From Burkholderiales bacterium (GTDB taxonomy: Bacteria; Pseudomonadota; Gammaproteobacteria; Burkholderiales; Burkholderiaceae_C): a DNA stretch of 64,000 nucleotides. The position numbers and the translations under genes were made by a program. The DNA lies in the NCBI GenBank assembly GCA_031414735.1, contig JANNWL010000227.1:1909-65908 (forward strand), read 5' to 3'. Under the pieces are notes generated by a model. That model saw nothing but the letters and a program-made list of their open reading frames with translations. It had not been told where the DNA came from and did no database searches. Shown here one piece after another: positions 1,414 through 38,759 of the stretch (position 1 is its first letter; every line of letters begins with the position of its first letter).

Positions 1414-1424
1414 AGGGCGCACCC

Positions 1425-2138
1425 ATGTACACCGCCAAGGGACAACTCGACGCCGGCCAACTGCTCAAGCAGTACAGCCCGCTGGTGCGCCGCCTGGCCC
1501 ACCAGATGATCGCCAAGCTGCCGGCCAACGTCGAGCTCGACGACCTGATCCAGGTCGGCATGATCGGCCTGAGCGATGCCTTGTCGCGCTTCGATGCCGC
1601 GCAGGGTGTGCAGTTCGAGACCTTCGCCACCCAGCGCATCCGCGGCGCCATGCTCGACGAGCTGCGCGGCAACGACTGGATGAGCCGCGGCGACCGCCGC
1701 CACCAGCGCAGCATCGAGACCGCGGTGCACAAGCTGGAACAGCGCTTCGGCCGCGCCCCCAGCGAAGGCGAGATCGCACGCGAGATGGGCTTGTCGCTGA
1801 CCGACTACCAGGAACTGCTGGGCAAGGTGCGCGGCACCCAGCTCATCTACCTGGAAGACATGAGCGGCGACGAGGGTGACGACGACTTCCTCGACCGCCA
1901 CGTTGCCGACAAGTCCCTCAACCCGATGTCGCGTTTGCAGGACCAGCGCATGCGCGAGGCCCTGGTCGAGGCCATCAAGAACCTGCCCGAGCGCGAGCAG
2001 TATGTGATGAGCATGTACTACGAACAGGACATGAACCTGAAGGAAATCGCCGCCGTGCTGGGCGTGACCGAAAGCCGCGTCTGCCAGCTGCACAGCCAGT
2101 CCATCGCCCGGTTGCGGGCGAGATTGCGGGAGTGGTAG
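1425..2138 (+). CDS. fliA: RNA polymerase sigma-28 factor FliA
   Basis: DDLIQVGMIGL, FETFATQRIRGAMLDELR, region 4 EIAAVLGVTESRVCQLH. Confidence 0.98.
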   Translation: MYTAKGQLDAGQLLKQYSPLVRRLAHQMIAKLPANVELDDLIQVGMIGLSDALSRFDAAQGVQFETFATQRIRGAMLDELRGNDWMSRGDRRHQRSIETAVHKLEQRFGRAPSEGEIAREMGLSLTDYQELLGKVRGTQLIYLEDMSGDEGDDDFLDRHVADKSLNPMSRLQDQRMREALVEAIKNLPEREQYVMSMYYEQDMNLKEIAAVLGVTESRVCQLHSQSIARLRARLREW

Positions 2139-2229: not shown

Positions 2230-2237
2230 TTCTGCAC

Positions 2238-2492
2238 GTGAACACGAAGCAGCGAAAGGTCTTGGAGGCCATTTACTTCAAGCCGACATTGGCTTCGGTC
2301 GTGTTCGCAGACATCGAGTCGCTGATCAGGGCCTTGGGCGGTACGGTGCTGGAGCGCGCGGGCTCACGCGTCAGTGTCTTGCTGATGGGCGAGGAGTGGC
2401 GTTGCCACCGGCCACATCCCGGCAAGGAAGCCAAGCGATACCAAGTTGAACAGGCGCGCGATCTGCTGGACCGCGCAGGAGTTCGTCCATGA
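2238..2492 (+). CDS. hicA: Type II toxin HicA
   Basis: 84 aa, GSRV and HRPHPGKEAKRYQVE motifs; ATGA overlap with the next gene. Confidence 0.9.
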   Translation: MNTKQRKVLEAIYFKPTLASVVFADIESLIRALGGTVLERAGSRVSVLLMGEEWRCHRPHPGKEAKRYQVEQARDLLDRAGVRP

Positions 2493-2827
2493 ACACCATG
2501 AACCATCAGGGCTACACGGCCCGCGTCGAATTTGACGAGCGCGACAATATTTTCGTGGGTCGTATTCTCGGCGTCCGCGCGATCATCAGTTTCCACGGGC
2601 AGACCGTGAAAGAACTTCGCAAGCAGTTCGAGCATGCGGTTGAAGACTACTTGGCCGAATGTTCTGAAAGGGGTGTCACCGCCGAAAAGCCGGCCTCTGG
2701 CAGGCTGTTGCTGCGGCTTGCGCCAGAAGTGCACGGGCGGGCGATGGTGGTCGCGCAGGCATCAGGCAAGAGCCTGAACCAATGGGTGGCAGAGACACTG
2801 GAACGAGCGGTCGCAGCAGCGACGTGA
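2489..2827 (+). CDS. hicB: Type II antitoxin HicB with C-terminal RHH domain
   Basis: YTARVEFDERDNIFVGRI, SFHG, AVEDYL, KPASGRLLLRL, SLNQWV. Confidence 0.92.
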   Translation: MNTMNHQGYTARVEFDERDNIFVGRILGVRAIISFHGQTVKELRKQFEHAVEDYLAECSERGVTAEKPASGRLLLRLAPEVHGRAMVVAQASGKSLNQWVAETLERAVAAAT

Positions 2828-2920
2828 GCACCGGTGTCAGACTGGATCGATCGCCCTCCCCAGGGTGGGTGTTCGCACCATGAGACTTGAAGCGCAGGTG
2901 GCATGGCCCGCCGCAGTCCC

Positions 2921-2953
2921 AACAAAAAACCGGCCTCGGCCGGTTTTGTTGTT
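2921..2953. terminator. Bidirectional intrinsic terminator between hicB and the flgN-like gene
   Basis: AAAACCGGC-CTCG-GCCGGTTTT stem-loop with A/T tracts on both sides, between convergent genes. Confidence 0.85.
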
Positions 2954-2992
2954 TCTGTGGTCCGGGGCCGCGCCCCGGCCTGGCGTGGCGGG

Positions 2993-3400
2993 TCAGGCCA
3001 GGAGGCTGCCGCTCTGGCCGATCGACCGCGGCGTGTGGCCACCGGCCGAGTACAGGGCAGGTTGGGTGGGCAGGCGGGGCAGCAGCACGTCGATGGCGCG
3101 GTCCAGCGACGTGGTGGCACGGGCCAGGGCCTCGCGTTGGGCTGCGACCTGGCCGCCGGCCAGAGCCAAGCGGCGCCGCAGGCCCGGCGGCACGCCACCC
3201 GCCTTGGCCGCGCGGCCGAAGTGGTCCACAGCGTTTGCCAGCGCAGCGTGCAGTTCGGCGGCCAAGCGCTCGACGGCCGGGGCGTCCTGGCGGTGCAGGG
3301 CCACGCCCAAGGCATTCAGGCCGACTTCCACCGCGGCCAGGGGCGCTTCAAGCGCGGCGGCCTGCTGCAAGGCGCGGCGCTCTTCAGATGACGTGTTCAT
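2993..3400 (-). CDS. Helical protein downstream of flgM, probably a divergent FlgN-like export chaperone
   Basis: 135 aa, predicted all-helical, occupies the flgN position 17 bp after flgM; the assignment is positional. Confidence 0.55.
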   Translation of the reverse strand: MNTSSEERRALQQAAALEAPLAAVEVGLNALGVALHRQDAPAVERLAAELHAALANAVDHFGRAAKAGGVPPGLRRRLALAGGQVAAQREALARATTSLDRAIDVLLPRLPTQPALYSAGGHTPRSIGQSGSLLA

Positions 3401-3417
3401 CGGTCGGGGGCCTCGGT

Positions 3418-3714
3418 TCAGTTGGGCTTGGACTTCGGCCCAAGCAGCTCTTCGGCATTGATGATGAGCTTGTCGGCGATGACCTCGGCGTTCACCTTGA
3501 ACTTGCCGTCACGTATGGCCTGGGCGATGCGCTCGACCTTGGCCGTGTCGAACGTGGTGTCGCCCGTGGCCACCGACAGCGAGGACGCCGCAGGTGACAA
3601 GGCGACCTTGGCGCTGGCTTCGGCGGCTGGCGGAGCCGCGGCCTCGGGCGTGATCTTGCGCTCCGCCGGCAAAGGCGGGAGGGCGGGCTTTGAATCGAGG
3701 GGACCGATCTTCAT
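3418..3714 (-). CDS. flgM: Anti-sigma-28 factor FlgM
   Basis: FDTAKVERIAQAIRDGKFKVNAEVIADKLI C-terminal signature. Confidence 0.95.
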   Translation of the reverse strand: MKIGPLDSKPALPPLPAERKITPEAAAPPAAEASAKVALSPAASSLSVATGDTTFDTAKVERIAQAIRDGKFKVNAEVIADKLIINAEELLGPKSKPN

Positions 3715-3768
3715 GGTGGGCTCCTGTCTGGGACACGGTGACCGTGCTGACCCGTTGACATAGATGGG

Positions 3769-3796
3769 GTATCGGCCGGGGTACAGGCCAACTTTA
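3769..3796 (-). promoter_or_regulatory. Sigma-28 promoter of flgM
   Basis: Minus strand reads TAAAGTTG...GCCGATAC (TAAA-N16-GCCGATAC; consensus TAAA-N15-GCCGATAA). Confidence 0.75.
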
Positions 3797-3849
3797 GGGC
3801 CAGTTGATTATTTTTCACGATTTTGGTCCGCCCCTGGGGGTCGGTGGCC

Positions 3850-4551
3850 TCAAAGGATGACCTCGACGCGCTTTTCGCCTGACGGCAGACCGCTGAGCAC
3901 GCGGCCCTGGTCCGTGCGCACGCGCGCCGGCTGGCCCTCAACGCCGTTGGAAAGCGCCTGCCCATCGCCAGTGATGGCGAAGCCCGGTCCGCTGGCGCGG
4001 ATGCGCACGGTATCGCCCGCAGCAAACCACTGGCGGGCTTGCAGGTCGGCTGGGCGCAGGGCCTGGCCGGCCGACAACGGGCGGGCCAAAACGCGGCCGA
4101 TCAGGTCGGTGCCCGAGCCGAACGGCGGGCTGCCGGCAGCCCAGTCGACTTCGACGGTGCGCAAGTCTGTCAGTGTCAGCCGGGCGCCGGCGGGCAGGGC
4201 GCCCACCGTCGCCAGCGCCGGAGCGAGGACTTGAATGTGCACCGGCACGAAAATGTTCCACGCCACACGCCCTTGCGTGCAGCGCAGGCCGACGCGGGTG
4301 CGGCCCCACACGGGGGTGCCGCGGGGCAGGTGGGGTTCGGTCTGCGCGCACGCGGCGAGCTGCAGGCGCGGGTCCAGCGGCACGGCGCTGGCCAGCACGC
4401 GGGCACCGGCGGGCGCACGCGCCGCAGCTGTGCTGCGCGCCAGTTCTACCGCCTGGCTGACACCTTCTGCCGGGGGCTGCGCGCCTGCGGGCGCAGCCAG
4501 GGCCCACAAGGTGGCAGCCAGGGCAGGGCGGACGTGGTGGACTTTGGGCAC
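3850..4551 (-). CDS. flgA: Flagellar P-ring chaperone FlgA
   Basis: Signal peptide (ALAAPAGAQ), DPRLQLAAC, WGRTRVGLRC, SAF domain, GDTVRI; GTG start at 4551 is my choice (ORF is open to 4674). Confidence 0.9.
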   Translation of the reverse strand: MPKVHHVRPALAATLWALAAPAGAQPPAEGVSQAVELARSTAAARAPAGARVLASAVPLDPRLQLAACAQTEPHLPRGTPVWGRTRVGLRCTQGRVAWNIFVPVHIQVLAPALATVGALPAGARLTLTDLRTVEVDWAAGSPPFGSGTDLIGRVLARPLSAGQALRPADLQARQWFAAGDTVRIRASGPGFAITGDGQALSNGVEGQPARVRTDQGRVLSGLPSGEKRVEVIL

Positions 4552-4693
4552 GCCACCAATGTAGCCAGCCGCACGCGGGGCCGTAGGCGGGAATTGGCGA
4601 CCCAAGCGGTCCCTTATCCGGCTCATGTTCTGACGCGTGCTGACCAGAATGCGCTCTCGGGTCGGGGTGTCCACGGCCCGTCAGGAGCGTTCG

Positions 4694-5101
4694 ATGATCC
4701 CCAAGCTGACCGAGTCGCTGGACTTTCACAGCCAGGCCTTGATGTTGCGCGCTGTACGGCAACGGCTGATCGCCAGCAACATCGCCAACGCCGACACGCC
4801 CGGCTACCAGGCCCGTGACTTCGACTTCGCCCAGGCCCTGCGCCAGGCCACCGGCGGCGGCGCGGCCACCGGGCAGGGCATTGCGGCGGACATCATGGCC
4901 GCTGCCAGCAACGGGCGTGCCGCACCCAGCCTGCGCTACGCCACGCCGAGCCAGACCAGCCTGGACAACAACAGCGTCGACATGAACCGCGAGCGCGGTG
5001 CCTTTGCCGAGAACGCCATCCGCTACGAGTCGACGCTACGCTTCATCAACGGCAACGTGCGCACCATGCTCGACGCCATGAAGAGCCACAACCAGGGCTG
5101 A
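4694..5101 (+). CDS. flgB: Flagellar basal-body rod protein FlgB
   Basis: IASNIANADTPGYQARD, DNNSVDMNRE; GGAG RBS before ATG 4694. Confidence 0.96.
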   Translation: MIPKLTESLDFHSQALMLRAVRQRLIASNIANADTPGYQARDFDFAQALRQATGGGAATGQGIAADIMAAASNGRAAPSLRYATPSQTSLDNNSVDMNRERGAFAENAIRYESTLRFINGNVRTMLDAMKSHNQG

Positions 5102-5109
5102 ACTGAACC

Positions 5110-5529
5110 ATGAGCCTCTTCAACGTCTTCAACGTCTCGGGCAGCGCGGTCAGCGCACAAAGCCAGCGGCTGAACATCGTCGCTTCCAACCTCAGCAACG
5201 CCGACACCGTGGCCGGCCCCGACGGCAGGCCCTACAAGGCGCGCCAGGTCGTGTTCCAGACCCTGCTCATGGGCGGCCGCGGTCAGCCCGCCGCCGCTGC
5301 GGGTGTGAAGGTGGCCGAGATCACTGAAAGCCAGGCCGAGGGCCGCCGCGTCTTCGACCCCAAGCACAAGTCGGCAGACACCGAGGGTTACGTGACTTAC
5401 AGCAACGTCAACACGGTGGAGGAGATGGTCAACATGATGTCGGCCTCGCGCTCGTACCAGAACAACATCGAGGTCATGAACACGGCGCGCAGCCTGTTGC
5501 TCAAGACCTTGCAGATCGGTCAGAGCTGA
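5110..5529 (+). CDS. flgC: Flagellar basal-body rod protein FlgC
   Basis: RLNIVASNLSNAD, SNVNTVEEMVNMMSASRSYQNN. Confidence 0.97.
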   Translation: MSLFNVFNVSGSAVSAQSQRLNIVASNLSNADTVAGPDGRPYKARQVVFQTLLMGGRGQPAAAAGVKVAEITESQAEGRRVFDPKHKSADTEGYVTYSNVNTVEEMVNMMSASRSYQNNIEVMNTARSLLLKTLQIGQS

Positions 5530-5549
5530 ACGGCTGAAGGACACGCGCC

Positions 5550-6209
5550 ATGACGACCATCAACGCCACCGCCAGCCTGCTTGCAGGCAGCAGCACCAGC
5601 AACCCCGTGCAGACCGCCAACGAGGCGGGCAGCGCCGACCGCTTCCTGAAGCTGCTCGTCACCCAGCTGCAGAACCAGGACCCGCTGAATCCGCTGGACA
5701 ACGCGCAGATCACGAGCCAGATGGCGCAGATCAACACCGTCAGCGGCATCGAAAAGCTCAACACCACGGTGCAGGGCCTGAATGGCCAGTTCATGCAGAT
5801 GCAGGTGTTGCAGGGCACGGCCCTGGTCGGGCGTGACGTGACGCTGCCGGGCAACAAGCTGGCGCTGGAGGACGGGGTCGGCACGGCCGGCTTCGAGCTG
5901 GCCGGTCCCGCCGACCGCGTGGTCGTGGAGGTGCTGGCACCTTCGGGCCGCGTCATCGACACACTCAGCCTGGGGGCGCAGTCCGCCGGCCGCAGTTCCT
6001 TCAACTGGACCCCGGCTGCGGCGAGCGGTGCGGTGGACGGCGAGAAGTACAGCTTTCGCATCGCCGCCACGACGGGCACAACGCGGGTTGGCAGCGAGCC
6101 GCTGATGCTGGACCGCGTGCGCGCGGTCAGCCTCGACGGTGACCGCCTGATGCTGGAAACCCAGAACTCGGGCCGCGTCGCCTATGGCGACATCCGCGCC
6201 TTCAATTGA
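5550..6209 (+). CDS. flgD: Flagellar hook assembly protein FlgD
   Basis: FLKLLVTQLQNQDPLNPLDN signature. Confidence 0.97.
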   Translation: MTTINATASLLAGSSTSNPVQTANEAGSADRFLKLLVTQLQNQDPLNPLDNAQITSQMAQINTVSGIEKLNTTVQGLNGQFMQMQVLQGTALVGRDVTLPGNKLALEDGVGTAGFELAGPADRVVVEVLAPSGRVIDTLSLGAQSAGRSSFNWTPAAASGAVDGEKYSFRIAATTGTTRVGSEPLMLDRVRAVSLDGDRLMLETQNSGRVAYGDIRAFN

Positions 6210-30305: not shown

Positions 30306-30619
30306 GAGGCTTCCTTCGGGTTCGCTGCGGGCGCCATGCCGGCTGCGTGAAGGCAGTTTCATCCCGAGGTAGCTCACAGACTGAGCTACCAATCCGTCGC
30401 ACAGCGATTTCTTCGGCGGGCGCACGGTCGGTCGGCGCGCACGGGACTTGAAGCGCTCGATCGCCGGAAAAGCCAGCAGAAGTTCACGCTTTTCCGGCGC
30501 AATCGGCTGGACCGACCTCAAGCCGCTGCGCGGGCGGCCGAGAAGACTGGCGTGAAGGCCGAACCTGCGCTGCGCTGCGCTGTTCGCCTGCCCCCTTGTT
30601 TCTTTGCGACGGGATTCTC

Positions 30620-32911
30620 ATGACAACAAGACCGCAACTCCTCCGGCGCCTGGCCGTCCTCACCGGGATGGTGTGGGCTCTCGGCTCGACCGGTGCCGCG
30701 CAAGCCCAGTCGTCGAACACCAGCAAGCTGTCCAGCGATCTCAAGAGTGTGTCGACGTCGCCCACCAACCCGGCTGCATCCGTGCCGTGGGCCAGGAATC
30801 TGAATGGTCAGACCCATGTTCGGGTGCTCATCAACGCCCGAAGCACCGACCCTGATCTGAAGGCGCTGCGTGCGGAGATCGTCGTCCGGGGCGGTTCGGT
30901 GTACTACAACTATCTGTCCGTGCGCGCCTTGTCTGCGTTGTTGCCGGCCAGCGAGTTGGCGGCGCTGGCCGCGCGCGCCGACGTGCTCAGCATCTCGCCC
31001 AACCGGCCCGTGCAGCGCCACGCCAGCCTGTTGCAGACCGTCACCGGGTCCGCCACGCTCCTGCCGGGCAGCCTGGGCGGGGTGAATGCGGCCGGCACGG
31101 CCCTGACCGGTGCCGGCGTGGGCATCGCCGTCCTCGACTCGGGCATCGACTTCCGTCACCAGAGCACCTTCGACGCATGGGGCGTGACCCGCGTCCGCAA
31201 CGCGATCGACATCGTGGGCGACGCCAAGGCCCGTGGCAAGAGCGTGTGGAAGAAACACGCCGACGGGTCGGAAGCGGTGCGGAAGTGGATGCGGGAGGAC
31301 AAGCTCGCCAAGCTCAATTCCTCCGACCCCGATCCGTATGGCCACGGCACCCATGTCGCCACGGTGGCGGCGGGCAACGGCAGCTACCAGTTGCCCGAGT
31401 CTGGCGGCGTGGCGCCAGGCGCTGACCTGCACGACGTGCGGGTGCTTGACGAAAACGGCATCGGCGACATGGACGACGTGCTGGCCGGCATTGACTGGGT
31501 CATCCAGCGTGCGCGCGCGACCAACATCCGTGTCATGAACCTCAGCCTGGGGGCGTCCTCGGTGGACTCCTTCCTGCTCGACCCGCTGGCCCGCGCCGTG
31601 CGCAGTGCCACGGCCGCCGGCATCGTGGTGGTGACGTCCGCGGGCAACTACGGCAAGAACGCGGCGGGCGCCAAGGTTCATGGTGCGGTGTCCTCGCCGG
31701 GACACGAGCCCTCGGCCATCACAGTTGGCGCGTCCAACATGCTGGCCACCGCTGACCGCGGCGACGACCTGGTCGCCGGCTTCAGCTCGCGCGGCCCCAC
31801 GCGCGGCGGGTTCACGATGGCCAGCGGCCGGCGCTGGGTGGACAACCTGATCAAGCCGGACCTCGTCGCGCCGGGCAACCGGGTGGTCGCCGCGCTGGCC
31901 GCCGACAGCGGCAAAAGCACGTCGGGCTGGAACCTGCTGGCGCGCAGCTACCCGCAACTGTCCCAGGTGGTCGGCGCCGGCCAGACCAGCCGCCGCACGC
32001 TGATGGAGCTCAGCGGCACTTCCGTCGCCGCGCCCGTGGTCGCCGGCGCTGCGGCCTTGCTGCTGGAGGCCAACCCGGGCCTGACGCCACCGCTGGTGAA
32101 AGCCATCCTGCAGTACACCGCGCAGCCGCTGGCCAACGCCAGCCTCGTGGAGCAAGGCACGGGCATGTTGAACGTCGAGGCCGCAGTGCGCCTGGCGCAG
32201 GCTCTGCGGACCGATCTGGGCCCCGCATTGGCCGCGGGCACCCTGCGGACCGGCGACAACATGCTGGCCGCTGGCCGCGTGTTGCCTGTCCAGGCATCGA
32301 CCTACAGTGGTCGCGCCGTGCCTTGGAGCCGCATGGTCTACGCGGGCGGGACCCACCTGGCCGGCGGTGACGCCTTGTTCACGCAGTGGCAGCCCGTGTA
32401 CGACCCGGCACTGACCTGGGCGCGCCAGGCGGTGCTGCGCAGCGTGGTCACCAACGCGCCGGGGGGCGCGCAGGTGCAGTCCATCGTGGAAGTCACGGCG
32501 CCTGCGCAGCCGCTGCTGACGGCAGGCGTGCGCCTGTTCGACGTGCTGGGCGGCAGCGTCAAGACCGGTGGCAGCCTGCTGACCACGCCGGTGGCCACCT
32601 TGGCCGGCCAGGTCGCCCGGGGCGCGGGCATGACCTTGCGCCTGGGCTTCAGCGGCGGCGCCGGCAGCGTCATGGGTGAAGGGGTGCCGCTGAGCCAGGG
32701 CTTCATCCTCAGCGAGGGCTTCATCCTGAGCGAAGGCTTCATCCTCAGCGAGGGCTTCATCCTGAGCGAAGGCTTCATCCTCAGTGAAGGCTTCATCCTG
32801 AGCGAGGCCTTCATCCTCAGCGAAGGCTTCATCCTGAGCGAGGGTTTCATTCTCAGTGAAGGCTTCATCCTGAGCGAGTCGCTGCGCGAACGCACGCTGC
32901 TGGGCGACTGA
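30620..32911 (+). CDS. Secreted S8 (subtilase) serine peptidase with a C-terminal (GFILSE)x10 tail
   Basis: Signal peptide ending AAQA; catalytic triad motifs AVLDSGI, HGTHVA, SGTSVAAP; oxyanion SAGN; DLVAPG. Confidence 0.95.
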   Translation: MTTRPQLLRRLAVLTGMVWALGSTGAAQAQSSNTSKLSSDLKSVSTSPTNPAASVPWARNLNGQTHVRVLINARSTDPDLKALRAEIVVRGGSVYYNYLSVRALSALLPASELAALAARADVLSISPNRPVQRHASLLQTVTGSATLLPGSLGGVNAAGTALTGAGVGIAVLDSGIDFRHQSTFDAWGVTRVRNAIDIVGDAKARGKSVWKKHADGSEAVRKWMREDKLAKLNSSDPDPYGHGTHVATVAAGNGSYQLPESGGVAPGADLHDVRVLDENGIGDMDDVLAGIDWVIQRARATNIRVMNLSLGASSVDSFLLDPLARAVRSATAAGIVVVTSAGNYGKNAAGAKVHGAVSSPGHEPSAITVGASNMLATADRGDDLVAGFSSRGPTRGGFTMASGRRWVDNLIKPDLVAPGNRVVAALAADSGKSTSGWNLLARSYPQLSQVVGAGQTSRRTLMELSGTSVAAPVVAGAAALLLEANPGLTPPLVKAILQYTAQPLANASLVEQGTGMLNVEAAVRLAQALRTDLGPALAAGTLRTGDNMLAAGRVLPVQASTYSGRAVPWSRMVYAGGTHLAGGDALFTQWQPVYDPALTWARQAVLRSVVTNAPGGAQVQSIVEVTAPAQPLLTAGVRLFDVLGGSVKTGGSLLTTPVATLAGQVARGAGMTLRLGFSGGAGSVMGEGVPLSQGFILSEGFILSEGFILSEGFILSEGFILSEGFILSEAFILSEGFILSEGFILSEGFILSESLRERTLLGD
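32699..32878 (+). repeat. Coding tandem repeat, 10 x 18 bp (GGCTTCATCCTSAGYGAR), encoding GFILSE
   Basis: Ten contiguous units read directly; unit 7 encodes AFILSE; almost all variation is synonymous. Confidence 0.98.
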
Positions 32912-32934: not shown

Positions 32935-32966
32935 GGCCGGCTTCGCGCAACGCGAAGCCGGCCTTT
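32935..32966 (+). terminator. Intrinsic terminator after the S8 peptidase
   Basis: 13-bp perfect stem GGCCGGCTTCGCG-CAA-CGCGAAGCCGGCC followed by TTT. Confidence 0.8.
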
Positions 32967-33002: not shown

Positions 33003-33029
33003 TCAAGTCCCGACCCCGACTGTCGATCT
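33003..33029 (+). promoter_or_regulatory. Possible sigma-28 promoter of the membrane GGDEF-EAL gene
   Basis: TCAA-N15-GTCGATCT; -35 box and spacing match, -10 box matches 5 of 8 positions. Confidence 0.35.
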
Positions 33030-33090
33030 CATGGGGGTGGTGCGGTGCCGAACCCCTGGGCGCGCGCTCGATTGCAAGTCAACGTCCTCG

Positions 33091-35613
33091 ATGAAGATTC
33101 CCTCCACGCAAGCCCCGCCGGCTGCCGGGGCCGCCGCCGCCAGGCCCGGCTTCAGGCGGCGCCACCTGTTCGACTACACGCCGGGCGCCGCCCGCCTGTG
33201 GTCGGGCATTGCGCTGGCGGGTGCTGCTGCCCTGGCGTGGGCGCTGTGGCAGGTGGCTGCGCTGCCGGCGCAGGCTTTGGCGCCGGTGTTCCTGGGTGGG
33301 GCGCTCGCCGCAGCGGCCGCACTGTTTCCATTGCAGATTCCGCGCACCTCGCACACCGTGCTGGTGGCCGATGTCTTCGTCTTCAGCATTCTGGCGGCCC
33401 TGGGGCCGGCCGCGGCCATGCTGGCGGCCGGTGCAGAAGCGGCGGTCGGCACCTACAGGACGTCCAAGCGTCTGACCAGCCGTGTGCTGAACCCCTCACT
33501 GGCCATGGCGGCGATGGCAGCCACCGGCGCCGTGTTCGTGGGTGGGGGCGGGCTGCTGCGTGCCTGGGGCTGTGCGCCCGCGGTGGCCGACCTGCTGGCC
33601 TTGTGCCTGGCCGCACCTGTGCAAGGTGTCTTGACCACCGCGCCGGTGATGTGGGTGTTGGCCCTGAAGAGGCAGGTGCCGTTGCGCTACGCGGACTGGT
33701 TCGGCGCTGCCAGCTGGGTGCTTGCCATGGGCCTGGCGGCGGCCCTTGTGGCCGGCATCCTGCACATCACGACGCAACGCTCCGGCCCGGGCGTGCTGGT
33801 CGTGGCGGCGGCCGTGGCCCTTGCGCTGGTGCTGTTGCTGCGCCACACCCTGGCGCAGCATGAGCTCGAACGCAAGGAGCAGGAGCAACGCATCAGCGAG
33901 GCGCAACGCGAGGCGGAGTTGAACCTGCAACGGTTCAGCGCCGCTTTCACGCAGGCCGCCATCGGCATGGCCATCGTCACGCCGATGGGGCAGGTGCTGC
34001 AGGCCAACGAGGCCCTGTGCCGCCTGCTCAGGCGCAACGAGCACCAGATGCTCAGCCAGCCCTTCTACGGTGTCTGGGCCGACGGCGACGCCGCACTGCT
34101 GCGCCGCAGGGCCGACCAGGTGCTGGGCGAAGCCGAGCCGGGCTTCTCGATGGAGCTGGGCTGCCTGGCGCCCGACGGCCAGCCCTTGTGGACGTCGGTG
34201 CACTGCAGCCGCTACCTGGACCCCGGGGGCGCCGGGGGCTGCCTGATCTACCAGCTGCACGACATCACCTCCCGCCAGGCGGCCGAGTCGCGCTTGCACC
34301 ACATCGCCTACCACGATGGCCTGACCGACCTGGCCAACCGCAGCTGCTTCCACCAGCGCCTGGACCTGGCGGTGGAGGGCAGCCGCCTCGACGCGGGCAA
34401 GTGCTTCGCCGTGATGTTCCTGGACCTGGACCGTTTCAAGGTCGTGAACGACAGCCTGGGCCACATTGCCGGCAACGTGCTGCTTCGCGAGGTGGCGCAG
34501 CGTTTGCGCGCGTGCGTGCGCCCGGGCGATCTCGTGGCCCGCCTGGGCGGTGACGAGTTCGCCATTCTGTTGGAAAACGTGCAGGCCACCGAGCAGGCCC
34601 TGACGCTGGCCCAGCGCGTGCTGGACGCGCTGATACAGCCGATCTCGATCAACGGCACCGAGGTCGTGCCCGGCGCCAGTGTCGGTGTGACCTTCAGCGA
34701 CCTGGGTTACCGCACGGTGGACGAAGTCCTTCGCGATGCCGACCTGGCCATGTACGAGGCCAAGGCCGCAGGACGCGGCCGCGTGGTGGCGTTCGACATC
34801 AGCATGCATGAGCGCGTGGCCGAGAAGCTGGCCCTGGAGACCGACCTGCGGCACGCCATCGGCGAGGGGCAGTTGACGGTGATGTTCCAGCCGCTCTTCT
34901 ATCTGCAGCCTTACAGCCTGTACGGATTCGAGGCTCTGGCGCGCTGGGAACACCCGACACGCGGACCGGTCAGCCCGGCGGTGTTCATTGCCTTGGCCGA
35001 AGAGTCCGGTCACATCGAGGAGTTGACCTCCTGGGTGATCGACCATTCGGTGGCGCAGCTGGCGGCCTGGCGGCGGCAATCGCCCCACCTGGCCCACCTG
35101 GGGATGCACGTCAACATCTCCGGGCGCGACCTGGGCCGCGCCGGCCTGTCGGCAGAAGTGCAGCAGGTGCTCGCGCGCCACGCACTGCCGGGCGCCAACC
35201 TGACGCTGGAGATCACCGAGACCACCCTCATGGGCCGGCTGGACGTGGCGCTGAAGACGCTGGGCGAACTGCGCAACGCGGGCGTGCAATGCAGCATTGA
35301 CGACTTCGGCACGGGCTACTCGTCGCTGGCGTATCTGAGCACCTTGCCGATCGACAGCTTGAAGATCGACCGCTCCTTCGTCATGGGCATGGACCAGCAG
35401 CCGCAGAACGTGGAAATCGTGCGGGCCGTCAACAACCTGGGCAAGTCCCTGGGCCACCGGGTGATTGCCGAAGGCATTGAGACGCCGCAACAGTTGGCCC
35501 TGCTGCGCACCCTGGGCGTGGCGCTGGGGCAGGGCTACTTGTTGTCACGACCGCTGCGGGCGGACCAGCTGTTGCCGCTGCTGCTGACAGGCCAGGGCGT
35601 CTCGGCGGTCTGA
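33091..35613 (+). CDS. Membrane sensor (about 7-8 TM) - PAS - GGDEF - EAL protein
   Basis: Hydrophobic N-terminal ~250 aa; AFTQAAIGMAIV PAS start; RLGGDEF, GFEALARW, DDFGTGYSSL, EGIE all intact. Confidence 0.92.
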   Translation: MKIPSTQAPPAAGAAAARPGFRRRHLFDYTPGAARLWSGIALAGAAALAWALWQVAALPAQALAPVFLGGALAAAAALFPLQIPRTSHTVLVADVFVFSILAALGPAAAMLAAGAEAAVGTYRTSKRLTSRVLNPSLAMAAMAATGAVFVGGGGLLRAWGCAPAVADLLALCLAAPVQGVLTTAPVMWVLALKRQVPLRYADWFGAASWVLAMGLAAALVAGILHITTQRSGPGVLVVAAAVALALVLLLRHTLAQHELERKEQEQRISEAQREAELNLQRFSAAFTQAAIGMAIVTPMGQVLQANEALCRLLRRNEHQMLSQPFYGVWADGDAALLRRRADQVLGEAEPGFSMELGCLAPDGQPLWTSVHCSRYLDPGGAGGCLIYQLHDITSRQAAESRLHHIAYHDGLTDLANRSCFHQRLDLAVEGSRLDAGKCFAVMFLDLDRFKVVNDSLGHIAGNVLLREVAQRLRACVRPGDLVARLGGDEFAILLENVQATEQALTLAQRVLDALIQPISINGTEVVPGASVGVTFSDLGYRTVDEVLRDADLAMYEAKAAGRGRVVAFDISMHERVAEKLALETDLRHAIGEGQLTVMFQPLFYLQPYSLYGFEALARWEHPTRGPVSPAVFIALAEESGHIEELTSWVIDHSVAQLAAWRRQSPHLAHLGMHVNISGRDLGRAGLSAEVQQVLARHALPGANLTLEITETTLMGRLDVALKTLGELRNAGVQCSIDDFGTGYSSLAYLSTLPIDSLKIDRSFVMGMDQQPQNVEIVRAVNNLGKSLGHRVIAEGIETPQQLALLRTLGVALGQGYLLSRPLRADQLLPLLLTGQGVSAV

Positions 35614-35740: not shown

Positions 35741-37114
35741 TCAGCTGCTGCGACGTACCCGTGCCCCCAGGGCCAGCAGGCCCAGCGCAAACAGCGCATA
35801 GGTGCCAGGCTCAGGCACCACGCTGACCTTCGCGAAGTAGGTGTCGATGCGCGTGGTGCCGTTGGGGTTGTCGCCGGTGAAGTTGGATGTGTCGCCCCAG
35901 GCCGCGACGAGCTTGCCGGCGTGAAAGTCCAGTGCGATGTAGTCGCCGCACTCGTTGCCGTCGCCGCCGATCGTGGCCGCCACGCAGCTGGTCACGCCCT
36001 GGCTGATCTTGAAGTTGGGCTCCCAACTCACGCCGCCGTTGAAGCTGAGCGTGCCCCACACCTCGACCGTGTTGTTGAGCGCCGAATTGCGTGCGTCGTA
36101 CCACACGGCACCCAGCCAGCCGGTGGTCTGGTCGACGGCCAGCCGGCCGAAGAACTGCGAGTTGGTGCCGACGTCGTTGTTCAGCTTCAGCTCGCTGCTG
36201 AAGGTGGCACCGTTGTCGTTGGAGCGGCGAAAGACGATGTCGGTGTTGTTGGTGGTGGTGTTGGCGGCTTGCGTGTACAGCATGTACAGGGCGCCGTTGT
36301 TGACGCCGCCTGTGGAGTCGTATTCCAGGTCGACCTGGGCGTCCACCGTGCGGCTGGGCTGCGGCGTGATCGGGCGGAAGCCGCCGACCTGGGTGGTCAC
36401 CGCGCTTTGCGCGACGAATGACGAACCGCCGGCCGTGCCATCGGCGTCGTAGCGGATCGTCATGCTGGTGGGGCCGATGCCGCCGGCTGGGCTCATCGAC
36501 GTGAATGCCGCGCGCCCGCTCGGGCCGACCGCGATCGAGCCGAAGTTACCCCCCGGGCCGACGGGCAACTGCGTGGTGAAGGCCGAGGTCACGCCCAGGC
36601 CTGTCGATGTGGCACTGATGATGCGGTTGCTGCTGCCGGTGGTGTCGCGCAGGAAAATGCTGTCGGTGCCGGGCGTGGGACCGGGGCCGATGCCCATCTC
36701 GGGGTGGTCTGAAGAGCCCGCGATGTTGGCGATGACGGTGTAGTTGGCGCCACCGTCCGTACTGCGGGCAATGGTGGTGGTGATGGCAGAGGTCAGGTAC
36801 GACACGTACATGTTGCCAAAGCGGTCAGCGCCCATCCAGGGGTCGCAACACGAGGTCGGCCCGAAGGAGCTGGGCGTGAATGAGGCCCCGCCGTTGTTGC
36901 TGAAACCCACGAAGATGCCGCTGCCGCCACGGCCGTTCGACCCCACGGTGATCATGTCGGTGTTGGTGCGGCTGATGGCGATGGACTGTTCGGACTGGTT
37001 GCCCGTCAATTTGGTGACGTTCACGTTGGGTCCGACCACATAGGTCTGGGCTTGGGCGCAGGGCGCCAGAACAGCCAACATGGACGCGGCGAGCTTGAAG
37101 GGCAACTTGGTCAT
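35741..37114 (-). CDS. PEP-CTERM exosortase substrate with BNR/Asp-box (sialidase-like) repeats
   Basis: Signal peptide; Asp boxes SNNGGASF, STDGGANY, SNDNGATF, SFNGGVSW; C-terminal VPEPGTYALFALGLLALGARVRRS. Confidence 0.92.
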   Translation of the reverse strand: MTKLPFKLAASMLAVLAPCAQAQTYVVGPNVNVTKLTGNQSEQSIAISRTNTDMITVGSNGRGGSGIFVGFSNNGGASFTPSSFGPTSCCDPWMGADRFGNMYVSYLTSAITTTIARSTDGGANYTVIANIAGSSDHPEMGIGPGPTPGTDSIFLRDTTGSSNRIISATSTGLGVTSAFTTQLPVGPGGNFGSIAVGPSGRAAFTSMSPAGGIGPTSMTIRYDADGTAGGSSFVAQSAVTTQVGGFRPITPQPSRTVDAQVDLEYDSTGGVNNGALYMLYTQAANTTTNNTDIVFRRSNDNGATFSSELKLNNDVGTNSQFFGRLAVDQTTGWLGAVWYDARNSALNNTVEVWGTLSFNGGVSWEPNFKISQGVTSCVAATIGGDGNECGDYIALDFHAGKLVAAWGDTSNFTGDNPNGTTRIDTYFAKVSVVPEPGTYALFALGLLALGARVRRSS

Positions 37115-37256
37115 GACGTTCCTCCTTGAAAATGTTTTGAAACTGTTTTGGGTCGAACCCAATGGCCCGTAACCGTACACCGGCATCCCCCGGCGGCACA
37201 ACACGGGATTGCGCGCACGGACCCCCCTCACTCGCGGGGGTGACGTTGGCGCCGGT

Positions 37257-38759
37257 TCAGCCCGGCGAGCCGCTGCGCCCGTACAGCCGCGACAACTCGG
37301 CCAGCCGGTGCGCATGCCAGGGGTGGACCTGCGCCCACTGGAAGCGCCAGCCCCACCAGCCGGATTCCTGGCCGGGGTAGTTCATGCGGCAATCGGTGGG
37401 CAGGGCCAGAACGTCCTGCATGGGGTGCACCGCCGTGTCGGCCACGCTGGCCATGGCGGCGCGGATCAGCGTCCAGGGCATGTCGTGGCCGTCTGTTGCC
37501 AGGTAGCCGCGGGCGAAGTGGCGTTCGCGGTCGGTGGCCTTGGCCCACCAGCCGGCGGTGGTGTCGTTGTCGTGGGTGCCGCTGTAGACCACGGTGTCGG
37601 GCTCGTGGTTGTGGGGCAGGAAACGGTCTGATGCATCGCCCGCAAACGCGAACTGCAGGATGCGCATGCCGGGCAGGCCGAACTTCTTGCGCAGGGCTTC
37701 CACGTCGGGGGTGATGAGCCCCAGGTCCTCGGCAATGATGGGCATGGGGCCCAGGGCCTTGTTGATGGCCTTGAAAAGCGCCTCGCCCGGGCCGGGCACC
37801 CAGCGCCCCTTGATGGCGGTGGGTTCGCTGGCCGGTATCTCCCAGTAGCCCGCAAAGCCGCGGAAGTGGTCGATGCGCACGATGTCGACGAGTTCGAAGG
37901 TGCGTCGCACGCGCTCCACCCACCAGGCAAAGCCGTCCTTGGCGTGCTCGCTCCAGCGGTACAGCGGGTTGCCCCAGCGCTGGCCCGTGGCACTGAAGAA
38001 GTCCGGCGGCACGCCAGCCACCACGCTAGGGCGGCCGTTTGCGTCCAGCTCAAACAGGTGCTGGTTGGCCCACACCTCGGCGCTGAGGTAGGCGATGAAG
38101 ATAGGCGTGTCGCCGATGATCTCGATGCCGCGGCTGTTGGCGTAGGCCTTCAGCGCCAGCCACTGACGGTAGAAGCTCCATTGGCAGAACTTCCAGAAGG
38201 CGATGCGATCGGCATGCTGCGCTCGTGCGGCAGCCAGGGCGGCGGGCTCGCGCCGGGCCAGGGCCGGGTCCCAGTCGCACCAGTCCTTCCAGTCCAGCGA
38301 TTCGCACAGCGCCATGAACAGCGCGTAGTCCTCGAGCCAGCTCTGGTGTTCGGCGTCGAAGCGGGCTTGGTCAGCCTGCTGCGCCTGGCTGCCTTGCGCA
38401 GTGAAGGCCGCCGCGGCCTTGGCCAGCCGTTCCATGCGGAAGGGGTACATCGCTGCGAAGTTGACCTGCGCGTCGTCCAGGCCGGCCACGGGCGCGAGGT
38501 CGACAGCTTCCAGCCAGCCCTGGCTGTGCAGTTCGGCCAGGTCGATGAGCAAGGGGTTGCCGGCGAAGGCCGAGTTGCTCATGTACGGCGAATTGCCCGG
38601 GCCGATGCCGGCCAGCGGCAGCAACTGCCACAGCTTCTGCCCGGCGCTGGCGAGCCAGTCGACGCAGTGGTAAGCCTCGCGACCGAAGTCGCCGCTGCCG
38701 TGCGGGCCGGGCAGGGATGTGGGATGCAGCAACACGCCGCTGGCTCGGGGGAATCTCAT
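37257..38759 (-). CDS. malQ: 4-alpha-glucanotransferase (amylomaltase, GH77)
   Basis: GVLLHPTSLP, GVPPDFFSATGQRWGNP, RIDHFRG, AEDLG, YSGTHDNDT. Confidence 0.97.
   Translation of the reverse strand: MRFPRASGVLLHPTSLPGPHGSGDFGREAYHCVDWLASAGQKLWQLLPLAGIGPGNSPYMSNSAFAGNPLLIDLAELHSQGWLEAVDLAPVAGLDDAQVNFAAMYPFRMERLAKAAAAFTAQGSQAQQADQARFDAEHQSWLEDYALFMALCESLDWKDWCDWDPALARREPAALAAARAQHADRIAFWKFCQWSFYRQWLALKAYANSRGIEIIGDTPIFIAYLSAEVWANQHLFELDANGRPSVVAGVPPDFFSATGQRWGNPLYRWSEHAKDGFAWWVERVRRTFELVDIVRIDHFRGFAGYWEIPASEPTAIKGRWVPGPGEALFKAINKALGPMPIIAEDLGLITPDVEALRKKFGLPGMRILQFAFAGDASDRFLPHNHEPDTVVYSGTHDNDTTAGWWAKATDRERHFARGYLATDGHDMPWTLIRAAMASVADTAVHPMQDVLALPTDCRMNYPGQESGWWGWRFQWAQVHPWHAHRLAELSRLYGRSGSPG

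What the first reader, a model, noticed from the sequence alone, without database searches (positions are those of the whole stretch)
33003..35613. Multi-TM sensor DGC/PDE next to the repeat-tail peptidase: candidate receptor linking a peptide signal to c-di-GMP
Seen: immediately downstream and co-oriented is a protein with ~7-8 TM helices and no large periplasmic domain, followed by PAS, GGDEF and EAL with all catalytic motifs intact. A strong terminator separates it from the peptidase, and a weak sigma28-like promoter (TCAA-N15-GTCGAT) precedes it. Inference: a MASE-type intramembrane sensor suited to a hydrophobic peptide (GFIL), forming a peptidase-peptide-receptor quorum-like circuit that controls the motile/sessile switch. 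Adjacency alone is weak evidence because the genes are not obviously co-transcribed.
Basis: inference. Interest (0 to 1): 0.65.

Follow-up and report, generated by a model that had tools for sequence, protein, structure and literature searches.

The report
Membrane sensor paired with repeat-tailed protease
A membrane enzyme that makes and breaks the bacterial messenger c-di-GMP lies next to a secreted protease ending in ten copies of a six-residue peptide. The pairing recurs in dozens of diverged copies and with other signalling outputs, so the two very probably form an undescribed signalling unit.

Summary
Window 33091-35613 (+) encodes an 840-aa protein with a multi-helix membrane domain lacking any sizeable periplasmic part, then PAS, GGDEF and EAL with all catalytic motifs intact. 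It lies 180 nt downstream of an S8 protease with a (GFILSE)x10 tail.

In 37 genomes of the genus, both gene families are present in 20, absent in 15, and split in 2. Of 52 tailed S8 genes with enough downstream sequence, 36 are followed by this sensor domain. Flanking genes are not conserved. The linkage also holds in other Burkholderiales families and in a second, unnamed lineage. It holds when the same membrane domain is fused to HD-GYP-GAF-GGDEF or a hybrid histidine kinase (3 of 5 such cases).

The membrane domain matches no Pfam model. Its predicted fold, and weak profile hits in relatives, tie it to ECF-transporter S components and to MASE9. The terminator and the sigma-28-type promoter between the genes are both conserved in orthologues, and the motif is strongly enriched before sensors and S8 genes.

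Functional coupling is very likely. That freed hexapeptides are the ligand remains inference. No paper describing such a module was found in the searched library.

The parts
30518..30542 (+). Sigma-28-like motif TCAAG-N14-GCCGAG, 77 nt before the S8 start. It has one mismatch to the strict motif.
   Evidence: Read. The strict motif lies within 300 nt upstream of 10 of 62 S8 paralogues, against a background of 0.008 per 310 nt.
30620..32911 (+). Secreted S8 subtilase: signal peptide, catalytic domain, C-terminal domain and hexapeptide-repeat tail. It is the partner gene of the module.
   Evidence: Pfam Peptidase_S8, E 1e-46. D173, H242 and S468 are invariant in alignment A2.
32699..32878 (+). 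Ten tandem 18-nt units encoding GFILSE (one unit reads AFILSE). This is the candidate signal or docking element.
   Evidence: Among unit pairs there are 83 synonymous and 9 non-synonymous codon differences. These repeats occur in the genome only in the four S8 tails.
32935..32963 (+). Intrinsic-terminator-like hairpin (13-bp stem, 3-nt loop) followed by TTTGT.
   Evidence: Folding energy -36.7 kcal/mol, z = -5.9. It is conserved in orthologues L103 and L106. L107 has a different but again self-complementary stem at the same place.
33003..33027 (+). Sigma-28 (FliA)-type promoter motif TCAAGTCC-N11-GTCGAT, 64 nt before the ATG.
   Evidence: CTCAAGT-N13-GTCGA[TA] is conserved in orthologues L103, L107, L108 and L109, while the rest of the spacer has diverged. 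It is enriched before sensor paralogues: 20 of 72 against about 0.6 expected. It fits the consensus TAAAGWWY-N11/12-RYCGAWRN quoted in PMC8762339.
33091..33867 (+). N-terminal integral-membrane sensor domain (residues 1-259). It belongs to an unmodelled family that resembles ECF S components and MASE9.
   Evidence: No Pfam hit. AlphaFold2 pLDDT 85. Top Foldseek hits are RibU, NikM, ThiT, BioY, FolT and other S components. The family has 917 representatives at E <= 1e-3. Relatives give sub-threshold hits to PF07155, PF12822 and PF20972.
33931..34266 (+). PAS domain.
   Evidence: Pfam PAS / PAS_4 / PAS_9.
34306..34779 (+). GGDEF domain with intact GGDEF active site and RxxD I-site.
   Evidence: Pfam E 1e-45; motifs.
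34843..35553 (+). EAL domain with all catalytic motifs intact.
   Evidence: Pfam E 1e-70; motifs.
1461..2126 (+). fliA (sigma-28) gene of this genome, the presumed factor for the promoters above.
   Evidence: TIGR02479 scores 281.8 bits against a cut-off of 189.6 at G000:C227:3369-4034.

Best explanation
The gene encodes an inner-membrane c-di-GMP enzyme (PAS-GGDEF-EAL, both active sites intact).

The input module. Its N-terminal helix bundle is a new branch of the ECF S-component / MASE9-like group of membrane-embedded ligand-binding domains.

The partner. The input module is functionally coupled to the adjacent secreted S8 protease. Most probably the protease tail is a string of about ten identical hexapeptides. 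Once the enzyme is exported and active, the tail is cut off, by the enzyme itself or by sister molecules. The hydrophobic, acidic peptides (GFILSE or a frame-shifted equivalent such as SEGFIL) partition into the outer leaflet of the inner membrane. There they occupy the sensor's intramembrane pocket. Binding is relayed through PAS to shift the balance between cyclase and phosphodiesterase activity.

Regulation. Here the two genes are separate transcription units, each behind a sigma-28-type promoter and separated by a terminator. They are therefore co-regulated with late flagellar and chemotaxis genes rather than co-transcribed.

Shown versus inferred.
- Shown: domain anatomy, intact motifs, conserved linkage independent of output domain, fold similarity, conserved promoter and terminator, purifying selection on the repeats, and tail-sensor co-variation.
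- Inferred: tail cleavage, peptide binding, direction of the c-di-GMP change, and any cell-to-cell (quorum) role.

My odds: about 0.85 that the two proteins are functionally coupled, and about 0.4-0.45 that freed peptide is the ligand.
For: Phyletic co-occurrence. In the 37 genus genomes, both families are present in 20 and absent in 15. One genome has the sensor only and one has the S8 only. Fisher p = 2.6e-8.

Adjacency within the genus.
- Of 54 sensor-domain genes, 32 lie directly downstream of and co-oriented with a tailed S8. Five more are the second sensor in an S8-sensor-sensor array.
- Of 52 S8 genes with enough downstream sequence, 36 are followed by a sensor.
- Spacers run from a 4-nt overlap to about 260 nt.

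The pair is the conserved unit. Flanks differ between orthologues: leuS/lptE and exbBD in L103 and L106-L109, against the M17 peptidase/dus and PEP-CTERM genes here.

Linkage outside the genus.
- All 3 other positive genomes in a 401-genome sample of the order have a tailed S8 upstream.
- So does G764.
- So do all 14 named MAG loci: Rubrivivax, Ideonella, Methylibium, Rhizobacter.
- In a second lineage, the best-scoring sensor paralogue of G812, G822, G829 and G833 has a tailed S8 upstream. In G812, G822 and G833 that is the only tailed gene the pattern scan found.

Linkage independent of output. The same membrane domain is fused to HD-GYP-GAF-GGDEF (L112, L114) or to a hybrid histidine kinase (L113), and each is again preceded by a tailed S8 (GLTLSE, GITISE, GLVLSE).

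Every S8 paralogue has a tail of consensus G-phi-phi-phi-[S/T/A]-E repeated 4-12 times, with about 20 peptide variants. Within our tail, codon differences are 83 synonymous against 9 non-synonymous.

Co-variation of tail and sensor.
- Tail-peptide distance correlates with sensor N-domain distance after controlling for the S8 core: partial r 0.41-0.43, 0 of 2000 permutations reach it.
- The reverse partial correlation is only 0.08-0.12.
- An 18-member sensor clade (support 100/100) pairs only with G[LIV]-type tails.
- Sensor residue 90 is F when peptide residue 2 is not F, and the reverse, in 42 of 49 pairs. This includes the separate switch in L103.

Sensor fold. AlphaFold2 pLDDT 85. The top Foldseek hits are almost all ECF S components (TM-score 0.60-0.69 normalised to the target, probability 1.0). 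Six of 58 relatives give sub-threshold ECF-ribofla_trS hits and 3 give MASE9 hits.

Matching counts. This genome holds exactly two GFILSE and two GLVLSE S8 genes. It holds two sensors at 42-100% identity to the query (the identity range seen for GF-tail-paired sensors) and two at 34-35% (the range seen for aliphatic-tail-paired sensors).
Against: - No direct evidence exists that the tail is cleaved or that peptides exist free.
- No RNA or proteome data cover this organism. Only DNA metagenomes hold the sequence.
- The S8 model was too poor to say anything about the tail (pLDDT 43).
- About 30% of S8 genes and about 30% of sensors in the genus are orphans.
- In the second lineage, most of the more distant sensor-domain paralogues have no S8 neighbour.
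- By the positive-inside rule, the most conserved motifs of the sensor (DY, FPxxIPRxK, the broken helix pair, RxSxRxxxR) lie on the cytoplasmic side. The periplasmic loops are only 3-6 residues. A periplasmic binding site is therefore not obvious.
- The co-variation statistics are not corrected for shared ancestry, and the residue-90 rule has 7 exceptions in 49.
- The closest orthologue pair (67% identical sensor domain) has GILLSE rather than GFILSE. Specificity, if any, changes fast or is loose.
Confidence: 0.5

Rival explanations
1. Tethered tail. The repeat tail is not released. It works as a multivalent hydrophobic docking element that holds the exported protease on the sensor's membrane domain. 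The sensor then reports whether the protease is present, folded or has departed. A variant is that the sensor serves as the protease's membrane anchor.
For: All the linkage and co-variation evidence fits this equally well. A short C-terminal end (...LLGEP / GE / GD) follows the repeats in most paralogues, which suggests the tail has a defined terminus.
Against: - Ten identical units under strong purifying selection, with copy number varying from 4 to 12, look more like a multi-copy product than a single interface.
- The sensor offers almost no periplasmic surface.
- One close orthologue lacks the C-terminal end altogether (L103).
Confidence: 0.2
2. The sensor senses something else that the protease produces or reports. 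Candidates are peptides released from environmental or matrix proteins, or envelope or membrane state. The tail would then have a separate role, such as a C-terminal pro-sequence for export or folding, as in other subtilases.
For: C-terminal pro-sequences are common in secreted subtilases (general knowledge). Orphan sensors and orphan S8 genes exist. More distant members of the sensor family have no S8 neighbour.
Against: This does not explain why the tail peptide tracks the sensor domain better than its own catalytic core. It also does not explain why tail types and sensor clades match within genomes.
Confidence: 0.15
3. Inside-out control. The c-di-GMP state of the sensor is relayed outward through the membrane domain to hold, release or activate the protease, as LapD does with LapG.
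Against: - LapD needs a sizeable periplasmic domain and has degenerate GGDEF/EAL sites. Here there is no periplasmic domain and both sites are intact.
- The same membrane domain is linked to the S8 when fused to a histidine kinase or to HD-GYP. That argues the membrane domain is an input, not an output.
Confidence: 0.07
4. There is no direct interaction. The two genes are merely co-regulated members of the flagellar late regulon and have been duplicated and transferred together as neighbours.
For: Both carry sigma-28-type promoters. Much of the adjacency within the genus could stem from duplication of the pair as a unit.
Against: Adjacency and orientation survive divergence to about 30% identity, changes of flanking genes, transfer to another lineage and replacement of the output domain. 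Of 41 motif occurrences in the fetched loci, 30 lie within 300 nt upstream of a sensor or S8 gene. No third gene was seen to recur beside the pair.
Confidence: 0.08

Closest known systems
MASE9 membrane sensor domain (Pfam PF20972; Galperin and Chou, bioRxiv 10.1101/2021.11.05.467447)
   Same: - It is an integral-membrane input domain with about 8 hydrophobic segments, two of them short and adjacent.
- It has no periplasmic domain.
- It is promiscuous, fused to HD-GYP, HD-GYP-GAF-GGDEF or GGDEF-EAL.
- Its ligand is unknown and was proposed to bind within the membrane.
- Three of 58 relatives of our domain give sub-threshold MASE9 hits over most of the profile.
   Different: Our protein and genome give no MASE9 hit even at E <= 10. 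The best relative reaches 19.2 bits against a cut-off of 24.3. The text read mentions no protease partner for MASE9.
S components of ECF transporters (RibU, ThiT, BioY, FolT, PanT, CbiM/NikM; Pfam PF07155, PF12822)
   Same: The predicted fold matches. Almost all top Foldseek hits are S components, with TM-score 0.60-0.69 on the target. Six of 58 relatives give weak PF07155 hits, best E 4.5e-5. S components are small membrane proteins that bind small ligands inside the bilayer.
   Different: Our domain is fused to cytoplasmic signalling domains and has extra helices. No EcfT/EcfA partner is implied. No hit passes a curated threshold. How its helices map onto the six S-component helices is unresolved.
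LapD-LapG of Pseudomonas fluorescens (general knowledge)
   Same: A GGDEF-EAL inner-membrane protein is genetically and functionally paired with an exported protease.
   Different: LapD is a c-di-GMP receptor with degenerate sites and a periplasmic LapG-binding domain, and LapG is a cysteine protease. Here the sites are intact, there is no periplasmic domain, and the protease is an S8 with a repeat tail.
Phr/Rap and other RRNPP peptide signals of Firmicutes, matured by subtilisin-type proteases (general knowledge)
   Same: Short (5-7 residue) peptides are cut from exported precursors by S8-type proteases and act as signals. Paralogous peptide-receptor pairs diversify.
   Different: There the precursor is a separate small protein with one peptide. 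The peptide is re-imported by Opp and binds a cytoplasmic TPR receptor. Here the putative precursor is the protease's own tail in about 10 copies, and the candidate receptor is a membrane domain in a Gram-negative cell.
Trp-repeat-tailed S8 plus MASE9-type sensor modules reported by earlier agents of this scan (e1-5136068, e1-1360236, e1-760047)
   Same: The architecture is the same as described there: a secreted S8 with a short-unit C-terminal repeat directly upstream of a multi-helix membrane sensor with varying outputs.
   Different: The repeat chemistry differs (Trp-Gly pentapeptides against G-phi-phi-phi-S-E hexapeptides), as do the phyla. I did not examine those loci. Homology of the two sensor groups rests only on the weak MASE9 hits of our family.

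Membership tests
GGDEF-EAL c-di-GMP turnover proteins | Pfam GGDEF and EAL domains above the gathering score | tested here: met
   GGDEF 155.9 bits (cut-off 23.8); EAL 237.8 bits (cut-off 31.3).
GGDEF-EAL c-di-GMP turnover proteins | Catalytic motifs: GG[DE]EF, the RxxD I-site, EAL, DDFGTGYSS, the E..TE, K.D and EG.E motifs, and QGY | tested here: met
   All are present at residues 477-814. Which activity dominates cannot be told from sequence.
MASE9 (PF20972) | Match to the Pfam model at or above 24.3 bits | tested here: not met
   No hit in the protein at E <= 10 and none in the whole genome. Relatives reach at most 19.2 bits.
MASE9 (PF20972) | About 8 hydrophobic segments, two short ones forming an intramembrane hairpin, and no periplasmic domain | tested here: inconclusive
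   Helices 93-104 and 106-124 are short, adjacent and broken at G105-P106. The positive-inside count favours a re-entrant hairpin with the N-terminus inside. Model coordinates could not be inspected.
MASE9 (PF20972) | Promiscuous fusion to several output domains | tested here: met
   Among 58 relatives: GGDEF 50, EAL 34, HATPase_c 6, HisKA 5, REC 5, HD_5 5, GAF 4.
ECF transporter S component (PF07155 / PF12822) | Match to a Pfam model above the gathering score | tested here: not met
   Our protein gives no hit. The best relative scores 24.0 bits against 26.7.
ECF transporter S component (PF07155 / PF12822) | Six-helix S-component fold | tested here: inconclusive
   Top Foldseek hits are RibU, NikM, ThiT, BioY, FolT and PanT, with TM-score 0.60-0.69 on the target and E about 1e-3. 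The mapping of helices is unresolved.
ECF transporter S component (PF07155 / PF12822) | Works with an EcfT/EcfA energising module | not tested
   No search for ECF modules was made. Fusion to signalling domains argues for a receptor role.
LapD-type inside-out receptor | Periplasmic protease-binding domain, and degenerate GGDEF/EAL with c-di-GMP binding only | tested here: not met
   No periplasmic domain; motifs intact.
Sigma-28 (FliA) regulon member | Promoter fitting TAAAGWWY-N11/12-RYCGAWRN, conserved in orthologues, with FliA present in the genome | tested here: met
   TCAAGTCC-N11-GTCGAT at 33003-33027. It is conserved in 4 orthologous spacers and enriched before paralogues. fliA is at window 1461-2126. 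The consensus comes from PMC8762339. Transcription itself was not observed.
Repeat-tailed S8 / membrane-sensor module (undescribed; named here) | A tailed S8 directly upstream of and co-oriented with a gene carrying this sensor domain | tested here: met
   The S8 stop at 32911 and the sensor start at 33091 are on the same strand. The same layout occurs in 47 further loci.

The most novel reading that the evidence does not exclude
The S8 tail is a polyprotein of about ten identical hexapeptide pheromones that the exported protease frees from itself. The S-component/MASE9-like membrane domain is their receptor.

Paralogous modules with different hexapeptides would then be orthogonal channels. 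GFILSE and GLVLSE coexist in this genome.

This would be a peptide-based cell-density or confinement signal in Gram-negative bacteria. It would be produced and read by motile (sigma-28-expressing) cells and wired to c-di-GMP, HD-GYP or histidine-kinase outputs. It would also give the first ligand class for a MASE9-like orphan sensor domain.
Probability: 0.35. Interest if true: 0.9.

Novelty: new variant of a known kind. Interest (0 to 1): 0.75.

Why it matters
Most membrane-embedded (MASE-type) input domains of c-di-GMP enzymes and histidine kinases have no known signal.

This work offers four things:
- A concrete candidate ligand, encoded next door in about ten copies and varying between paralogues. 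It can be synthesised and tested directly.
- A structural frame for such sensors, since the fold resembles the ligand-binding subunits of ECF vitamin transporters.
- If the peptide idea holds, a peptide signalling system in Gram-negative bacteria, where such systems are rare. The precursor would be fused to its own processing protease.
- A link between the module and the flagellar late regulon, and so to the decision between swimming and settling in floc- and biofilm-forming freshwater Burkholderiales.

Tried and rejected
Searches and computations that led nowhere:
- Pfam and NCBIfam scans of the N-domain gave nothing beyond a chance DUF4131 hit at E 0.09.
- The MASE9 model found nothing in the genome.
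- The word-based homologue search returned only 23 close relatives.
- The search for related loci used one narrow peptide pattern and gave only 14 loci.
- A search for RNA runs to test co-transcription found only DNA metagenomes.
- AlphaFold2 of the S8 with an 11-row alignment gave pLDDT 43, so nothing can be said about the tail's conformation.
- The terminator scanner missed the hairpin because its T run is short.
- Literature searches for the peptide strings, for subtilase with GGDEF/EAL, for S-component sensors, and for the assembly accession of the second lineage gave nothing relevant.
- The second lineage could not be named. The tool withholds kinship for it.

Orphan S8 genes:
- I checked whether they are followed by another kind of sensor. 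They are followed by unrelated housekeeping genes: isocitrate dehydrogenase-like, PEP carboxykinase-like, urease-like and an ABC ATPase.

Ideas considered and rejected:
- A LapD/LapG-type system: there is no periplasmic domain and the motifs are intact.
- The membrane domain as a sorting protease (exosortase- or rhombosortase-like): alignment A1 has no invariant Cys, His or Ser-His pair in the membrane. The tail also lacks a hydrophobic-basic sorting signal.
- The tail as a left-handed beta-helix 'hexapeptide repeat': there is no Hexapep hit, and the unit does not fit [LIV]-[GAED]-x2-[STAV]-x.
- The tail as an outer-membrane beta-barrel anchor: it is too short, has no alternating pattern and has no aromatic C-terminus.
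- ATG 33032 as the start: it lies 4 nt after the -10 element, and the database protein starts at 33091.


Full report
**1. What is there**

- The window has about 68% G+C. The real gene runs from ATG 33091 to the stop at 35613 on the + strand and encodes 840 aa. The public protein collection holds exactly this product (P0004).
- The finding's start coordinate, 33003, is the first base of the promoter-like motif, not of the gene.
- Pfam finds PAS, GGDEF (E 1e-45) and EAL (E 1e-70).
- Every catalytic motif is intact: I-site RPGD 477, GGDEF 486, EAL 614, N675, EITE 707, DDFGTGYSS 737, KID 758, EGIE 794, QGY 814.
- The first 259 residues are a helix bundle with 7-8 hydrophobic segments and no loop longer than about 15 residues.
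- An AlphaFold2 model built on 11 relatives is confident (pLDDT 85, pTM 0.81). Its helices are 31-56, 60-77, 93-104/106-124 (broken at G105-P106), 128-158, 163-194, 200-231 and 234-259.
- The upstream gene (30620-32911) is a pre-pro S8 subtilase in which D173, H242 and S468 (by sequence context the catalytic triad) are invariant. It ends in ten GFILSE units.

**2. The spacer between the two genes**

- It holds a 13-bp perfect hairpin (32935-32963) followed by TTTGT. Folding energy is -36.7 kcal/mol, z = -5.9.
- It also holds TCAAGTCC-N11-GTCGAT at 33003-33027.
- I fetched five orthologous loci whose sensor domains are 64-74% identical.
  - The hairpin recurs in L103 and L106. L107 has a different but again self-complementary stem at the same place.
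  - CTCAAGT-N13-GTCGA[TA] recurs in L103, L107, L108 and L109, while the rest of the spacer has diverged.
- Genome-wide, TCAAG-N14-G[CT]CGA[TA] occurs 30 times against about 4 expected. Many copies lie before genes whose N-termini look like chemoreceptors or CheW. One lies before a second sensor paralogue on contig C480.
- Across all fetched loci, 20 of 72 sensor genes and 10 of 62 S8 genes carry the strict motif within 300 nt upstream. The background is 0.008 per 310 nt.
- Our own S8 has TCAAG-N14-GCCGAG, one mismatch, 77 nt before its ATG.
- The motif fits the sigma-28 consensus TAAAGWWY-N11/12-RYCGAWRN quoted in PMC8762339. fliA lies in this same window at 1461-2126.
The two genes look like separate but co-regulated late-flagellar-class units. 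Transcription itself could not be checked, because only DNA metagenomes hold this sequence.

**3.

*Within the genus (37 genomes, including this one)*
- The sensor domain and the S8 family co-occur: both in 20 genomes, neither in 15, one only in 2. Fisher p = 2.6e-8.
- Of 54 sensor-domain genes, 32 lie directly downstream of and co-oriented with an S8 paralogue. Five more are the second sensor of an S8-sensor-sensor array.
- Of 52 S8 genes with enough downstream sequence, 36 are followed by a sensor.
- Spacers run from a 4-nt overlap to about 260 nt.
- The paralogous pairs have diverged to about 30-50% identity in the sensor domain and 45-65% in the S8.

*Flanking genes*
- Neighbours differ between orthologues, so the pair is the conserved unit.

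*Outside the genus*
- In an even sample of 401 genomes (168 genera) of the order, only three other genomes have the domain. All three have a tailed S8 directly upstream.
- A phylum sample of 401 adds one further genome, again with the S8.
- All 14 named loci from the species-level collection have a tailed S8 upstream. They are MAGs labelled Rubrivivax, Ideonella, Methylibium, Rhizobacter and Betaproteobacteria.

**4. Independence from the output domain**

- A profile of the N-domain finds 917 representatives (E <= 1e-3) among 1.84 billion proteins.
- Among 58 longer representatives the outputs are GGDEF (50), EAL (34), histidine-kinase parts (HATPase_c 6, HisKA 5, REC 5, Hpt 1), HD-GYP (5) and GAF (4). 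This is the behaviour of a true input domain.
- I looked up the context of five members with other outputs:

| Locus | Output | Upstream neighbour |
|---|---|---|
| L112 | HD-GYP-GAF-GGDEF | S8 with (GLTLSE)n tail |
| L114 | HD-GYP-GAF-GGDEF | S8 with (GITISE)n tail |
| L113 | hybrid histidine kinase | S8 with (GLVLSE)n tail |
| L115 | PAS-kinase | no S8; sits in a fliEFG / cheZY / motB cluster |
| L116 | HD-GYP-GAF-GGDEF | no S8 within the 477 nt available |

- L114 belongs to a genome (G812) of about 56% G+C. Among it and its 25 relatives, 18 of 26 genomes have 1-9 copies of the domain.
- In G812, G822, G829 and G833 the best-scoring copy has a tailed S8 upstream. In G812, G822 and G833 that is the only tailed gene the pattern scan found. 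The more distant copies have none.
- The phylum-level sample around G812 shares no listed genome with the sample around our genome. It is therefore apparently another phylum, which I could not name.
- The S8-linked sensors are thus one subfamily of a wider sensor family.

**5. What the membrane domain is**

- No Pfam or NCBIfam model hits it. The MASE9 model finds nothing in the whole genome even at E <= 10.
- Foldseek of the model against the PDB returns almost only S components of ECF transporters: RibU, NikM2, ThiT, CbiM, BioY, FolT and PanT. Probability is 1.0 and TM-score 0.60-0.69 on the target, at modest E-values of about 1e-3.
- Independently, six of 58 relatives give sub-threshold hits to ECF-ribofla_trS (best E 4.5e-5). 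Four hit ECF_trnsprt and three hit MASE9 (best E 1.2e-3, covering profile positions 41-176 of 203).
- MASE9 was described as having 8 hydrophobic segments, two too short to span the membrane. Its outputs are HD-GYP, HD-GYP-GAF-GGDEF or GGDEF-EAL, and its ligand is unknown. That matches this family in kind.
- I therefore file the domain as a new, unmodelled relative of MASE9 and the S components. It works like a MASE domain but is not a member by any curated threshold.
- The topology is unresolved.
  - Charges favour the N-terminus inside, with 93-124 as a re-entrant hairpin. N-terminal Arg/Lys, PRxK in loop 78-92, and RTSKRLTSR all point this way.
  - That arrangement puts the most conserved motifs on the cytoplasmic face and leaves periplasmic loops of 3-6 residues.

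**6. The tail and its relation to the sensor**

- Every S8 paralogue carries 4-12 units of G-phi-phi-phi-[S/T/A]-E. There are about 20 variants, including GFILSE, GLVLSE, GFIVSE, GFFLTE, GIILSE and GLALAE. Most end in ...GEP or GE.
- In our tail the units differ by 83 synonymous and 9 non-synonymous codon differences. The peptide, not the DNA, is being kept.
- Such repeats occur nowhere else in this genome. The genome has two GFILSE and two GLVLSE S8 genes. It has two sensors at 42-100% identity to the query and two at 34-35%, the identity ranges seen for GF-tail-paired and aliphatic-tail-paired sensors respectively.
- S8-core and sensor-domain distances are correlated (Mantel r 0.62).
- Tail-peptide distance stays correlated with sensor-domain distance after removing the S8 core (partial r 0.41-0.43; 0 of 2000 permutations reach it). 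The reverse partial correlation is only 0.08-0.12.
- In the sensor tree an 18-member clade (support 100/100) pairs only with G[LIV] tails.
- Sensor residue 90 is F when peptide residue 2 is not F, and the reverse, in 42 of 49 pairs. This includes the separate switch in L103 (GILLSE) inside the GF clade.
- These statistics are not corrected for shared descent and have exceptions. They are leads, not proof.

**7. Mechanism and odds**

- Coupling between the S8 and the membrane domain is, in my judgement, very likely (about 0.85).
- Rivals and my odds:
  - A tethered, uncut tail docking on the sensor (0.2).
  - The sensor reading something else while the tail serves export (0.15).
  - LapD-like inside-out control (0.07).
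  - Mere co-regulation without interaction (0.08).
- The sigma-28 promoters place the module with late flagellar genes, which fits a role in the swim-or-settle decision. The direction of the effect is unknown.

**8. Novelty**

- Text searches of the held library found no description of a subtilase-sensor pair of this kind, of these peptides, or of S-component-like sensor domains.
- Earlier agents of this scan reported the same S8 (e1-5180624) and Trp-repeat-tailed S8 genes beside MASE9-type sensors in other phyla.
- I re-derived the linkage here independently. I added the output-independence test, the S-component/MASE9 connection, the conserved promoter and terminator, and the tail-sensor co-variation. 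I did not examine the Trp-tailed loci.

Noticed in passing
window 1461-2126 (+): fliA (sigma-28) lies in this window, about 29 kb upstream of the S8-sensor pair. TIGR02479 scores 281.8 bits, above the cut-off.
   Followed up: partly
G000 contig C480:273-10240 (outside the window): There is a tandem array of S8, S8, sensor, sensor. Both S8 genes have (GLVLSE)n tails, and a sigma-28-type motif lies 38 nt before the first sensor. Similar 2+2 arrays occur in G005 and G017.
   Followed up: partly
G000 contig C396:2698-6410 (outside the window): A second GFILSE-tailed S8 is followed by a 298-aa open frame. Only its first ~60 residues match the sensor domain (E 8e-6). This is a decayed sensor or an assembly break. 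An orphan sensor sharing 42% identity with the query sensor sits on contig C40.
   Followed up: partly
window 33457-33483 (sensor residues 123-131): The near-invariant cytoplasmic loop R-x-S-x-R-x-x-x-R (RTSKRLTSR; RTSKRWTSR in the aliphatic clade) contains two overlapping RxxxR spacings. That spacing resembles the PilZ c-di-GMP-binding motif. It could be a feedback site or the contact with PAS.
   Followed up: no
whole genome G000: TCAAG-N14-G[CT]CGA[TA] occurs 30 times against about 4 expected. Many copies precede genes whose N-termini look like chemoreceptors, CheW, or HD-GYP-associated domains. Two copies lie before the Hpt-like gene and the 236-aa unknown gene at window ~16146 and ~20586. 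This is a usable sigma-28 regulon list for this organism.
   Followed up: partly
L115 (JGI metagenome contig), 3501-5945: A member of the same sensor family fused to PAS-HisKA-HATPase-REC sits inside a fliG-fliF-fliE / cheZ-cheY-motB cluster without any S8.
   Followed up: no
window 35741-37315 (-): The convergent downstream gene is a PEP-CTERM protein with BNR/Asp-box repeats. A PEP-CTERM protein also follows the pair in L114. It is not conserved in the close orthologues.
   Followed up: no
L103 (ENA metagenome scaffold), 3409-5799: The closest orthologous pair found has a (GILLSE)x10 tail ending exactly at the last unit, with no C-terminal extension. Four other close orthologues have GFILSE plus an ...LLGD-type end. 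The tail peptide can therefore change between near relatives.
   Followed up: partly
L036 (G015:C81), 3-4079 (-): Downstream of an orphan S8 lies a >1359-aa open frame made of ~90-residue Ala/Thr/Ser-rich repeats (…LTSAQVAAITSAQADTMTTEDLAA…). It runs off the contig and has no assigned family.
   Followed up: no
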